Source: a virus
IMG/VR virus record: IMGVR_UViG_3300032163_000010
Span: 8,005-72,004 of that record
Strand: one strand, 5' to 3'
DNA: 64,000 bases
Shown here in pieces: positions 11,271 to 11,753 of the stretch. Positions within the stretch are counted from its first letter, which is position 1; each line of letters begins with the position of its first letter. A program made the position numbers and the translations under genes. Below the pieces are notes generated by a model. That model made no database searches. It saw only the letters and a program-made list of their open reading frames with translations, and had not been told where the DNA came from.

Positions 11271-11753
11271 ATGGGTAGGAAACGCTCCGTAGCACAAGAG
11301 GTCATCGTTAGGGAACAGAAGAGACGTCGAGCAAAGGCAGTCAAATTATTGAATGGATGGCACTATTGCCCAAGGTGTAGGAGGAATTCTATCGAGACGG
11401 ATTTTGTCATGAATCGCAAGGGAGTCAAGATTACGGAGAAGACGATCAGACCGGGGCCTTCGGGTAACGAGATTGTCAAGGTTCATCTCGCGGGGTCAAT
11501 TTGCAGGAGTTGTGGGGAGAAGGAGCTAGTGTGGCTACTCCCCGGAGAGGAACTCATCGACCTGTATCATATATTACATGATAGGATACAAGTAGATGTC
11601 AGGATTAGAGACATGATGGAATGGTTGTTCGCGGTACCACAGGATTCAGCGGAGGACAGGAGAAAGGAAGCAAAGAGGAAGGAAGAGGCCGAGCTGGAGA
11701 AATGGAGGAAGGAAGCTCCAGTGATCACGATTCCTGATAAGAAGGAAGAATAA
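11271..11753 (+). CDS. Elf1-like transcription elongation factor (Zn ribbon)
   Basis: MGRKR basic N-terminus, CPRC..SI, CRSCG, then ELIDLY..LHD, matching the Elf1 pattern. Confidence 0.6.
   Translation: MGRKRSVAQEVIVREQKRRRAKAVKLLNGWHYCPRCRRNSIETDFVMNRKGVKITEKTIRPGPSGNEIVKVHLAGSICRSCGEKELVWLLPGEELIDLYHILHDRIQVDVRIRDMMEWLFAVPQDSAEDRRKEAKRKEEAELEKWRKEAPVITIPDKKEE

What the first reader, a model, noticed from the sequence alone, without database searches (positions are those of the whole stretch)
11271..11753. Virus-encoded Elf1-like elongation factor
Seen: basic MGRKR start, CPRC..SI, CRSCG and IDLY...D, with an enlarged ribbon insert and a charged C-terminal tail. Known: Elf1 binds elongating RNA polymerase in eukaryotes and has homologs in TACK/Asgard archaea. 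Inference: a viral mimic that hijacks or blocks host RNAP elongation, fitting the candidate antitermination hairpins; it also points to a TACK-type host.
Basis: partly seen in the sequence, partly recalled or inferred. Interest (0 to 1): 0.7.

Follow-up and report, generated by a model that had tools for sequence, protein, structure and literature searches.

The report
Divergent Elf1-like factor in archaeal virus
A tailed virus from a sediment metagenome, probably infecting archaea, carries a highly diverged and enlarged copy of Elf1, a small zinc-binding protein that in cells rides on the transcribing RNA polymerase, so the virus may tune its host's transcription elongation directly.

Summary
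Alone it does not pass as Elf1 (Pfam PF05129 14.8 bits, cut-off 29.8), and an unrelated neighbouring zinc ribbon scores higher, at 16.4 bits. The case rests on its family. A profile search of 1.84 billion proteins found 8 rare metagenomic relatives. All 10 members scanned hit PF05129 over nearly the whole profile, and 2 of the 10 exceed the cut-off. The window protein joins them at hhalign probability 99.6%, E 3.8e-24. An AlphaFold model (pLDDT 86.7) has Elf1/ELOF1 chains at ranks 1, 2, 4 and 5 of 48,161 PDB representatives, with best Z 6.7 and 63 of 64 residues aligned.

So it is a true but aberrant Elf1 homologue. It has about 20 extra residues in the ribbon and a roughly 55-residue helical, mixed-charge C-terminal extension. 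It lies in a promoter-bounded early operon of a 72-kb tailed virus with archaeal-type promoters.

Binding to host RNA polymerase, the direction of any effect, and a TACK or Asgard host are all inferred, not shown. My paper searches found no report of a virus-encoded Elf1. The scan holds unchecked notes of Elf1-like genes in another virus (e1-6270839) and in a giant virus (e1-5307113).

The parts
11271..11753 (+). Whole ORF (160 aa plus stop): divergent Elf1-family zinc-ribbon protein
   Evidence: ORF list. Family Pfam hits to PF05129 in 10 of 10 members. hhalign probability 99.6% to the rest of the family. Elf1/ELOF1 are the top structural matches.
11257..11261 (+). GGAGG Shine-Dalgarno-like site 9 nt before the ATG, overlapping the stop of the upstream gene
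   Evidence: Read directly from the sequence.
11271..11366 (+). Residues 1-32: MGRKRS start and basic N-terminal helix (net charge +8)
   Evidence: Charge count. Helix 7-28 in the model. The family conserves MGRKRS or MPRKRS and a net charge of +4 to +11 in the 10 members that keep the N-terminal region.
11367..11537 (+). Residues 33-89: four-cysteine zinc ribbon (C33, C36, C78, C81) with an elongated beta-hairpin insert (strands 55-62 and 65-78)
   Evidence: Invariant or nearly invariant Cys columns. Knuckle spacing is 41 here and 32-41 across the family. Strands are taken from the model.
11541..11582 (+). Residues 91-104: PGEELIDLYHILHD, the start of the conserved Elf1-type helix (E93, L95, D97, Y99, D104)
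   Evidence: Invariant columns. The family profile aligns this stretch to the ...vDvYsdwfD... stretch of a chain deposited as 'Transcription elongation factor 1 homolog' (8tvy_O).
11583..11750 (+). Residues 105-160: C-terminal extension outside the Elf1 profile. It is predicted helical (to residue 120, then 127-148) and K/E-rich with mixed charge.
   Evidence: Model secondary structure. Charge count. The Pfam match ends at residue 106.
9215..9227 (+). BRE/TATA-like box AAAGTTTTATATA, the likely promoter of the operon that holds the gene
   Evidence: Pattern search gave 10 matches against 2.26 expected; 0 of 100 shuffles reached 10. Sequence read.
12973..12985 (+). Next BRE/TATA-like box AAAGTTTTAAATA, marking the likely downstream limit of the operon

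Best explanation
The ORF encodes a strongly diverged, enlarged member of the Elf1/ELOF1 zinc-ribbon family, carried by a tailed dsDNA virus of an archaeon. It is expressed from a promoter-bounded operon of small early genes. Its most likely action is to dock on the host RNA polymerase elongation complex where cellular Elf1 sits. The basic N-terminal helix would point at downstream DNA, and the viral protein would replace or supplement host Elf1, so that promoter-proximal escape and processivity are re-tuned in the virus's favour. The added beta-hairpin and the helical C-terminal extension would give it virus-specific properties. Shown here: the ORF, its family, Elf1 homology by profile and by predicted fold, the viral context, and archaeal-type promoters. 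Inferred: polymerase binding, the site of binding, the direction of the effect, and early timing.
For: Homology. All 10 of 10 family members match PF05129 at E<=1 over roughly profile positions 9-79. The exception is P0010, which lacks the N-terminal half and matches positions 41-76 only. The best E-value is 1.6e-8. Two of the 10 are above the gathering score (P0008 35.0 and P0006 32.8 bits), and two more fall within 1 bit of it. P0012 and P0008 carry a precomputed PF05129 label. The window protein plus P0002 align to the other members with hhalign probability 99.6%, E 3.8e-24, over 114 columns.

A profile of the family against PDB sequences gives Elf1 chains as the best single-stretch matches: 8tvy_O E 6.5e-4, 9sv6_U 1.1e-3, 24qp_Q 1.6e-3 and 8ram_M 2.1e-3.

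Fold. The model has pLDDT 86.7. A VIA search of 48,161 chains puts ELOF1/Elf1 at ranks 1, 2, 4 and 5: Z 6.7 with rmsd 2.4 over 63 of 64 residues, then Z 6.5, 5.5 and 5.5. In Foldseek, the only rows with probability >=0.94 are Elf1/ELOF1 (1wii, 8b3d_M, 8ram_M, 9rtt_b), with TM by target of 0.54-0.68.

Specificity control. None of 46 other small ORFs of the early region hit Elf1 at E<=0.001.

Context. The record is viral. BRE/TATA-like boxes at 9215 and 12973 bracket the operon.

Biology, from papers of which I read passages. Elf1 has a basic N-terminal helical tail, a zinc-ribbon domain and a tail, and together with Spt4/5 it forms the DNA entry tunnel (PMC7289017, PMC9501531). In Saccharolobus it is a general part of the elongation complex, recruited promoter-proximally, where escape is rate-limiting (PMC8448881).
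Against: The window protein alone fails the Pfam cut-off (14.8 against 29.8 bits, E 0.031). The unrelated neighbouring zinc ribbon scores higher, at 16.4 bits. At loose thresholds PF05129 rings in 13 of 14 control genomes.

phmmer of the single protein against PDB found no Elf1. No Foldseek match reached E<=0.001. The VIA Z values are below 8, which the tool calls middling, and an unrelated chain (AcrIF24, Z 5.6) sits at rank 3. Two language-model atlas searches returned no Elf1 cluster.

The tail is neither acidic nor predicted to be disordered, unlike the Elf1 tail described in PMC7289017. The ribbon carries about 20 extra residues that could clash with the canonical docking site.

No host is known, so it is unknown whether the host polymerase uses Elf1 at all. 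Viral context is shown for only one member of the family. The others lie on contigs of 665-8,022 bases that I could not read, apart from L003.
Confidence: 0.5

Rival explanations
1. The homology is the same but the effect is the opposite. The viral Elf1 copy is a competitive decoy that occupies the Elf1 site or the DNA entry channel and shuts down host transcription, in the way that ATV RIP or host TFS4 inhibit archaeal RNA polymerase.
For: Homology and fold evidence as for the best explanation. Passages of PMC7289017 state that yeast Elf1 inhibits elongation in vitro and that the virus-encoded RIP binds RNAP and represses globally. PMC9501531 (passages) reviews such shut-down factors. The extra hairpin and the helical extension could act as a wedge.
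Against: Nothing here shows inhibition. The virus encodes no RNA polymerase in this window: no RNAP family was seen, which covered 10, 10 and 46 ORFs but not every ORF. It therefore needs the host enzyme for its own genes, so a global block would have to spare viral templates.
Confidence: 0.2
2. The protein descends from Elf1 but has been repurposed. It is a nucleic-acid-binding protein that acts without RNA polymerase, for example by coating or marking viral DNA or acting in replication, using the basic helix and the enlarged ribbon.
For: The family is very far from canonical Elf1: 14.8-35 bits, a 13-21 residue insert and long extensions. The N-terminus is strongly basic (net +8). The VIA list also holds dsRNA-binding domains at Z 4-5. 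The surrounding genes are mostly small zinc-ribbon proteins of unknown function.
Against: The most conserved block of the family, LLPGE-LIDLY-x-x-x-D, is the very block that aligns to the Elf1 helix. That is unexpected if the Elf1-specific surface had been abandoned.
Confidence: 0.17
3. The resemblance is chance or convergence. This is a generic four-cysteine zinc ribbon with a basic N-terminus and is not homologous to Elf1.
For: Zinc ribbons attract weak Elf1 hits. The neighbouring ORF scores 16.4 bits, and 13 of 14 control genomes ring at E<=10. The protein's own score is sub-threshold. Foldseek E-values are about 0.1.
Against: Two family members pass Pfam's curated cut-off with near full-length matches. 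The link of the window protein to them has E 3.8e-24. Sequence profile and fold search independently put Elf1 first. None of 46 other early ORFs reach E<=0.001.
Confidence: 0.08

Closest known systems
Elf1 / ELOF1 (Pfam PF05129, Zn_ribbon_Elf1), the transcription elongation factor of eukaryotes and of TACK and Asgard archaea
   Same: It has a basic N-terminal helix, a CxxC...CxxC zinc ribbon, and a following helix with the D-x-Y-x-x-x-x-D pattern. The predicted fold superposes on human ELOF1 and yeast Elf1 over almost their whole length. The Pfam match covers profile positions 9-77 of 79.
   Different: Its own score is below the Pfam cut-off. It has about 21 extra residues inside the ribbon, with knuckle spacing of 41. 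It has a roughly 55-residue helical, mixed-charge extension instead of an acidic unstructured tail (tail description from PMC7289017 passages). It is encoded by a virus. Polymerase binding is untested.
Archaeal Elf1 of Saccharolobus solfataricus, a general component of the elongation complex (PMC8448881)
   Same: [quoted passage not shown]
   Different: The host of this virus is unknown.
Virus- or infection-linked regulators of archaeal RNA polymerase: ATV RIP and TFS4 (PMC7289017, PMC9501531, PMC8448823)
   Same: Small proteins acting directly on the archaeal polymerase during virus infection. TFS4 is likewise a diverged paralogue of a basal factor (TFS).
   Different: There is no sequence or fold relation. 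Those are inhibitors with demonstrated binding, and nothing is demonstrated here. For PMC8448823 I saw only the abstract in a search listing.
Phage-encoded elongation and antitermination factors of bacteria, such as lambda N and Q (recalled, not searched)
   Same: The concept is the same: a virus supplies its own elongation-complex accessory factor.
   Different: Different proteins and a different polymerase lineage, with no homology. This is an analogy only.

Membership tests
Elf1/ELOF1 (PF05129) | The protein itself reaches Pfam's gathering score (29.8 bits) | tested here: not met
   14.8 bits, E 0.031, residues 17-106 against profile 9-77 of 79. This is an operational threshold, not a biological feature.
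Elf1/ELOF1 (PF05129) | Profile-level homology to Elf1 through its own family | tested here: met
   All 10 of 10 members hit PF05129 at E<=1, and 2 of 10 exceed the cut-off at 35.0 and 32.8 bits. hhalign of the window pair against the other members gives probability 99.6%, E 3.8e-24. The family profile hits Elf1 chains in PDB at E 6.5e-4 to 2.1e-3.
Elf1/ELOF1 (PF05129) | Four-cysteine zinc ribbon (CxxC ... CxxC) | tested here: met
   C33, C36, C78 and C81. C78 and C81 are invariant, and C33 and C36 are conserved in at least 90% of 11 sequences. P0010 lacks the first knuckle because it is N-terminally short. Zinc binding itself was not tested.
Elf1/ELOF1 (PF05129) | [quoted passage not shown] | tested here: met
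   Residues 1-32 have net charge +8. The model has a helix at 7-28.
Elf1/ELOF1 (PF05129) | Conserved helix after the ribbon (D-x-Y ... D block) | tested here: met
   D97 and Y99 are invariant and D104 is nearly so. The block aligns to ...vDvYsdwfD... of Elf1 chain 8tvy_O.
Elf1/ELOF1 (PF05129) | Elf1 three-dimensional fold | tested here: met
   Elf1/ELOF1 chains take VIA ranks 1, 2, 4 and 5 of 48,161 (Z 6.7, 6.5, 5.5, 5.5), with 63 of 64 residues of 9er2_O aligned at 2.4 A. Foldseek probability is 0.99 for 1wii and 8b3d_M. Caveats: Z is below 8, Foldseek E is about 0.1, and the structure is a prediction.
Elf1/ELOF1 (PF05129) | Compact ribbon of canonical length | tested here: not met
   90 residues align to 69 profile positions. 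The knuckle spacing is 41 here and 32-41 in the family.
Elf1/ELOF1 (PF05129) | [quoted passage not shown] | tested here: not met
   The tail has 14 K/R and 15 D/E, net -1, and is predicted helical at 95-120 and 127-148. I recall, without having checked, that human ELOF1 lacks such a tail, so this feature may not be universal.
Elf1/ELOF1 (PF05129) | Association with the transcribing RNA polymerase | not testable with these tools
   The host polymerase is unknown and no binding evidence was obtained.

The most novel reading that the evidence does not exclude
This is the founding member, with known genomic context, of a virus-borne clade of remodelled Elf1 factors. Through it, archaeal viruses would take control of the promoter-proximal escape checkpoint of the host RNA polymerase. 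That would be an archaeal counterpart of phage antitermination, built from a factor shared with eukaryotic Pol II. It might also be adapted to transcribing the virus's own 7-deazaguanine-modified DNA.
Probability: 0.3. Interest if true: 0.8.

Novelty: new variant of a known kind. Interest (0 to 1): 0.6.

Why it matters
According to the papers I read in part, the function of archaeal Elf1 is still poorly understood (PMC7289017, PMC8448881). The virus-encoded regulator of archaeal RNA polymerase named in those passages is an inhibitor (RIP of ATV).

A viral, structurally remodelled Elf1 would be a natural probe of what Elf1 does on the elongation complex. It would also be the first hint that archaeal viruses act on elongation rather than on initiation or by global shut-down. 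Because Elf1 is shared with eukaryotic Pol II, such a factor bears on how this factor's surface can be re-engineered.

The finding also gives a weak, testable host clue. Elf1 is reported only in part of the Archaea: Cren-, Kor-, Aig- and Bathyarchaeota and Asgard. It is not reported in Euryarchaeota or in the first Thaumarchaeota examined (PMC7289017, PMC2732611).

Tried and rejected
Single-sequence routes gave nothing decisive. phmmer against PDB returned only RavA at E 0.59. PHROGs gave 0 families. NCBIfam gave only a YgiT finger at E 0.12. The first AlphaFold run, with 2 sequences, was poor (pLDDT 58.8), although ELOF1 was already its top Foldseek row at E 0.096.

The two atlas searches returned no Elf1 cluster. 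All scores were below 0.9 and all structural TM values below 0.5. BFVD viral structures gave no match at E<=0.001 and no TM above 0.45.

I searched for relatives with genomic context, mostly without success.
- IMG/VR scans with A2, A3, P0006 and P0004 found none.
- IMG/VR scans with the neighbouring gene and with RFC found none.
- tblastn of the protein against INPHARED phages found no match.
- A pattern scan of GTDB species genomes with A3 found none. That pattern would also miss the window protein itself, so this absence is weak.
- The metagenome scan found only L003, the 1,457-base contig of P0011. It shares no other gene with the window by tblastx.

Host identification failed. The RFC scan of genome contigs found nothing. 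The terminase has only hits of 25% identity or less to bacterial phages. The best E-value for RFC is to a haloarchaeal tailed virus, 3e-38, which says 'archaeal-like replication' but does not name a lineage.

I rejected the idea that the neighbouring ORF 11768..12037 is a second Elf1 copy. BLASTP to the Elf1-like protein gives E 0.049 over 12 residues. It belongs to phage zinc-ribbon families: phrog_1315 at 1.7e-5 and NF047912 at 2.3e-4.

I dropped P0003, a 1,125-aa tandem-repeat protein that matched profile positions 67-94 twenty times, as an artefact before all family counts.

Complex prediction with Sulfolobus acidocaldarius Rpo2 residues 1-480 as a stand-in gave no verdict (score 0.24, mark 0.32). 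This is no evidence either way. Sequencing runs: no RNA holder was listed. There were two DNA holders labelled sediment metagenome, one of which may be the source, and I laid no reads.

My third homologous-protein search was not used, so fused or split forms ('longer', 'shorter') were not looked for.

Eight paper searches found no paper reporting a virus-encoded Elf1. The library lacks most subscription journals, and supplements were closed. Additional file 1 of PMC2732611, and Table 1 of PMC7289017 (which I did not read), may bear on the Elf1 distribution I quote.

Full report
**What is there.** The window is bases 8005-72004 of a 72,004-base virus record that CheckV rates as 100% complete. 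It encodes a large terminase (phrog_17415, E 3.2e-14), two tail-tube paralogues (PF18906, E 2.7e-14 and 5e-16), and a family-B DNA polymerase with a LAGLIDADG insert. It also has an RFC-type clamp loader (phrog_168, E 1.6e-48) and a QueC-like enzyme (E 1.5e-62). It is therefore a tailed dsDNA virus.

A BRE/TATA-like word, AAANNTTTAWATA with up to one mismatch, occurs 10 times against 2.26 expected. None of 100 shuffles reached 10. This word, the archaeal-style replication genes, and the fact that the best E-value for RFC belongs to a haloarchaeal tailed virus (3e-38) all point to an archaeal host.

The ORF 11271..11753 (+) encodes 160 aa. It follows a GGAGG at 11257-11261 and lies in a tightly packed plus-strand row of small genes. 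That row sits between the promoter-like boxes at 9215 and 12973.

**The observation.** These are MGRKRS at 1-6, CPRCRRNSI at 33-41, CRSCG at 78-82 and LIDLYHILHD at 95-104. The two knuckles are 41 residues apart. The N-terminal 32 residues have net charge +8. The last 56 residues hold 14 K/R and 15 D/E.

**Is it Elf1? The protein alone does not show it.** Pfam gives PF05129 at E 0.031 and 14.8 bits against a cut-off of 29.8, although the match spans profile positions 9-77 of 79. This cannot be trusted by itself for three reasons:
- The unrelated 89-aa zinc ribbon next door scores 16.4 bits on the same model.
- At E<=10 the model rings in 13 of 14 control genomes, and exceeds its cut-off in only one.
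- phmmer against PDB sequences, PHROGs, NCBIfam and two language-model atlas searches gave no Elf1.

**The family settles it.** The word-indexed search of 5.8 billion proteins found one relative, P0002, at 54% identity. A profile of the two sequences, run against 1.84 billion representatives, found 10 proteins at E<=0.001. One was the query itself and one was a tandem-repeat artefact (P0003), which I dropped. The other eight are small proteins of 102-192 aa, at E 2.4e-13 to 4.4e-4. A further search added P0012.

These proteins share the same layout: MGRKRS or MPRKRS, a basic stretch, CPxC, a long hairpin, CxxC, and LLPGE-LIDLY-x-x-x-D.

Scanned one by one, all 10 of 10 match PF05129 at E<=1, with near full-length coverage in 9. 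The exception is P0010, which lacks the N-terminal half. The scores in bits are 35.0, 32.8, 29.4, 29.1, 27.8, 26.0, 25.1, 21.1, 20.7 and 14.8. Two members pass the curated cut-off and two miss it by less than a bit.

The window protein and P0002 align to the remaining members with hhalign probability 99.6%, E 3.8e-24, over 114 columns. The family profile searched against PDB sequences puts Elf1 chains at the top of the single-stretch hits (E 6.5e-4 to 2.1e-3). It aligns the second knuckle and the helix block to ...GtlsCkiCgqsf...vDvYsdwfD.... The one better-scoring row, a cytochrome c555 trimer, is three weak repeats of 7.7 bits each.

As a specificity control, none of 46 other small ORFs from the same early region reached E<=0.001 on Elf1.

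**Fold.** With the 11-sequence alignment, AlphaFold gave pLDDT 86.7 and pTM 0.58. The model has helix 7-28, strands between 31 and 89, helix 95-120 and helix 127-148.

A Foldseek-independent search of 48,161 PDB representatives ranked Elf1/ELOF1 chains as follows:
- Rank 1: human ELOF1, 9er2_O, Z 6.7, rmsd 2.4 A, 63 of 64 residues aligned to model residues 25-111.
- Rank 2: yeast Elf1, 8rap_M, Z 6.5.
- Rank 4: mouse ELOF1, 1wii, Z 5.5.
- Rank 5: 6ir9_M, Z 5.5.
- Rank 3 was an unrelated chain, AcrIF24, at Z 5.6.

Foldseek found nothing at E<=0.001. However, its only rows with probability 0.94 or more were Elf1/ELOF1, with TM by target of 0.54-0.68. The Z values are in the range the tool calls middling, so the fold result is corroboration rather than proof. 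It is nonetheless independent of the sequence profile and agrees with it.

I conclude, at about 85-90%, that this is a true Elf1 homologue.

**How it differs from Elf1.** Pfam aligns 90 residues to 69 profile positions here. Across the family the match is 13-21 residues longer than the profile segment it covers. The model places the excess in a long beta-hairpin at 55-78.

After the Elf1 helix there are about 55 more residues, predicted helical and of mixed charge. The review I read in part describes an acidic unstructured tail for Elf1 instead (PMC7289017). Extensions of 54-95 residues occur in 9 of the 11 relatives but are not conserved in sequence beyond about residue 120.

**How rare and how viral.** The ten relative clusters hold one or two sequences each. 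All come from metagenome sources, none carries an NCBI genome accession, and all lie on contigs of 665-8,022 bases. None was found in IMG/VR, in named phage records, or in 185,579 species genomes by one narrow pattern.

Viral context is therefore established only for the window protein. The one contig I could read, L003, shares nothing else with this virus.

**Mechanism.** Passages of PMC7289017 and PMC9501531 describe Elf1 as joining Spt4/5 on the elongation complex to form the downstream DNA tunnel. PMC8448881 shows by ChIP-seq that Saccharolobus Elf1 is a general component of the elongation complex. There it is recruited after Spt4/5 near the promoter, where escape limits output and competes with aCPSF1-linked termination.

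The viral family has kept the parts that define Elf1: the basic helix, the zinc ribbon and the helix block. The helix block is in fact its best-conserved stretch. I therefore think the most likely action is docking at the Elf1 site of the host polymerase and re-tuning escape or processivity for viral transcription units (about 50%).

The rivals are a decoy that blocks the host enzyme (about 20%), an Elf1-derived nucleic-acid binder that no longer uses the polymerase (about 17%), and mere convergence (about 8%). None of the functional steps is shown.

I can only add that the 161-nt leader behind the 9215 promoter folds better than all but 1 of 200 shuffles (z -3.33).

**Host.** Papers report Elf1 in Cren-, Kor-, Aig- and Bathyarchaeota and in Asgard archaea, but not in Euryarchaeota or the first Thaumarchaeota examined (PMC7289017, PMC2732611, passages). 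A TACK or Asgard host is thus a reasonable guess, but it rests on the Elf1 homology alone. I could obtain no independent host evidence.

**Novelty.** Eight full-text searches found no report of a virus-encoded Elf1. Subscription journals and supplements were not covered. The scan's own unchecked notes mention an Elf1-like gene in another virus (e1-6270839) and in a giant virus (e1-5307113), so the theme may recur. I rate this a new variant of a known kind, of moderate to high interest.

Noticed in passing
window 11768-12037 (+): An 89-aa zinc-ribbon ORF lies directly downstream. It scores higher on the Elf1 model (16.4 bits) than the Elf1-like gene itself, but it belongs to widespread phage zinc-ribbon families (phrog_1315 E 1.7e-5; NF047912 E 2.3e-4) and is not a paralogue (BLASTP E 0.049). 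It serves as a useful false-positive control.
   Followed up: yes
window 2721, 4711, 8708, 9215, 12973, 19742, 26207, 35181, 36130, 61967: A BRE/TATA-like word, AAA-N2-TTTAWATA, is enriched: 10 matches against 2.26 expected, and 0 of 100 shuffles reached 10. The four exact copies read AAAGTTTTATATA (9215 and 26207), AAAGTTTTAAATA (12973) and AAAAGTTTAAATA (19742).
   Followed up: partly
window 9250-9410 (+): The leader between the 9215 promoter-like box and the first ORF of the operon folds to -45.6 kcal/mol, z -3.33, with 1 of 200 shuffles as good.
   Followed up: partly
window 29864-33379 (+) and 43042-45105 (+): The family-B DNA polymerase carries a LAGLIDADG-type insert, a likely intein. 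A second 687-aa protein has Hint (Vint) and LAGLIDADG hits but no recognised host-protein family.
   Followed up: no
protein P0003 (not in the window): A 1,125-aa metagenomic protein made of about 20 tandem repeats matched profile positions 67-94 twenty times (E 1.9e-23). It is a repeat artefact, not a relative, and would inflate family counts if kept.
   Followed up: yes
window 2294-23175 (+), 46 small ORFs: Only four Pfam families appear at E<=0.001 among 46 early-region ORFs: RNase_H, RVT_3, HTH_45 and zf-PARP. The scan was batched, so I did not record which ORFs carry them.
   Followed up: no
window 38005-38727 (+): A QueC-like gene (phrog_1550, E 1.5e-62) is consistent with the 7-deazaguanine DNA-modification module noted by another reader (e1-6187939).
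   Followed up: partly
window 58345-60336 (-): Two adjacent paralogous tail-tube genes (PF18906, E 5e-16 and 2.7e-14).
   Followed up: no
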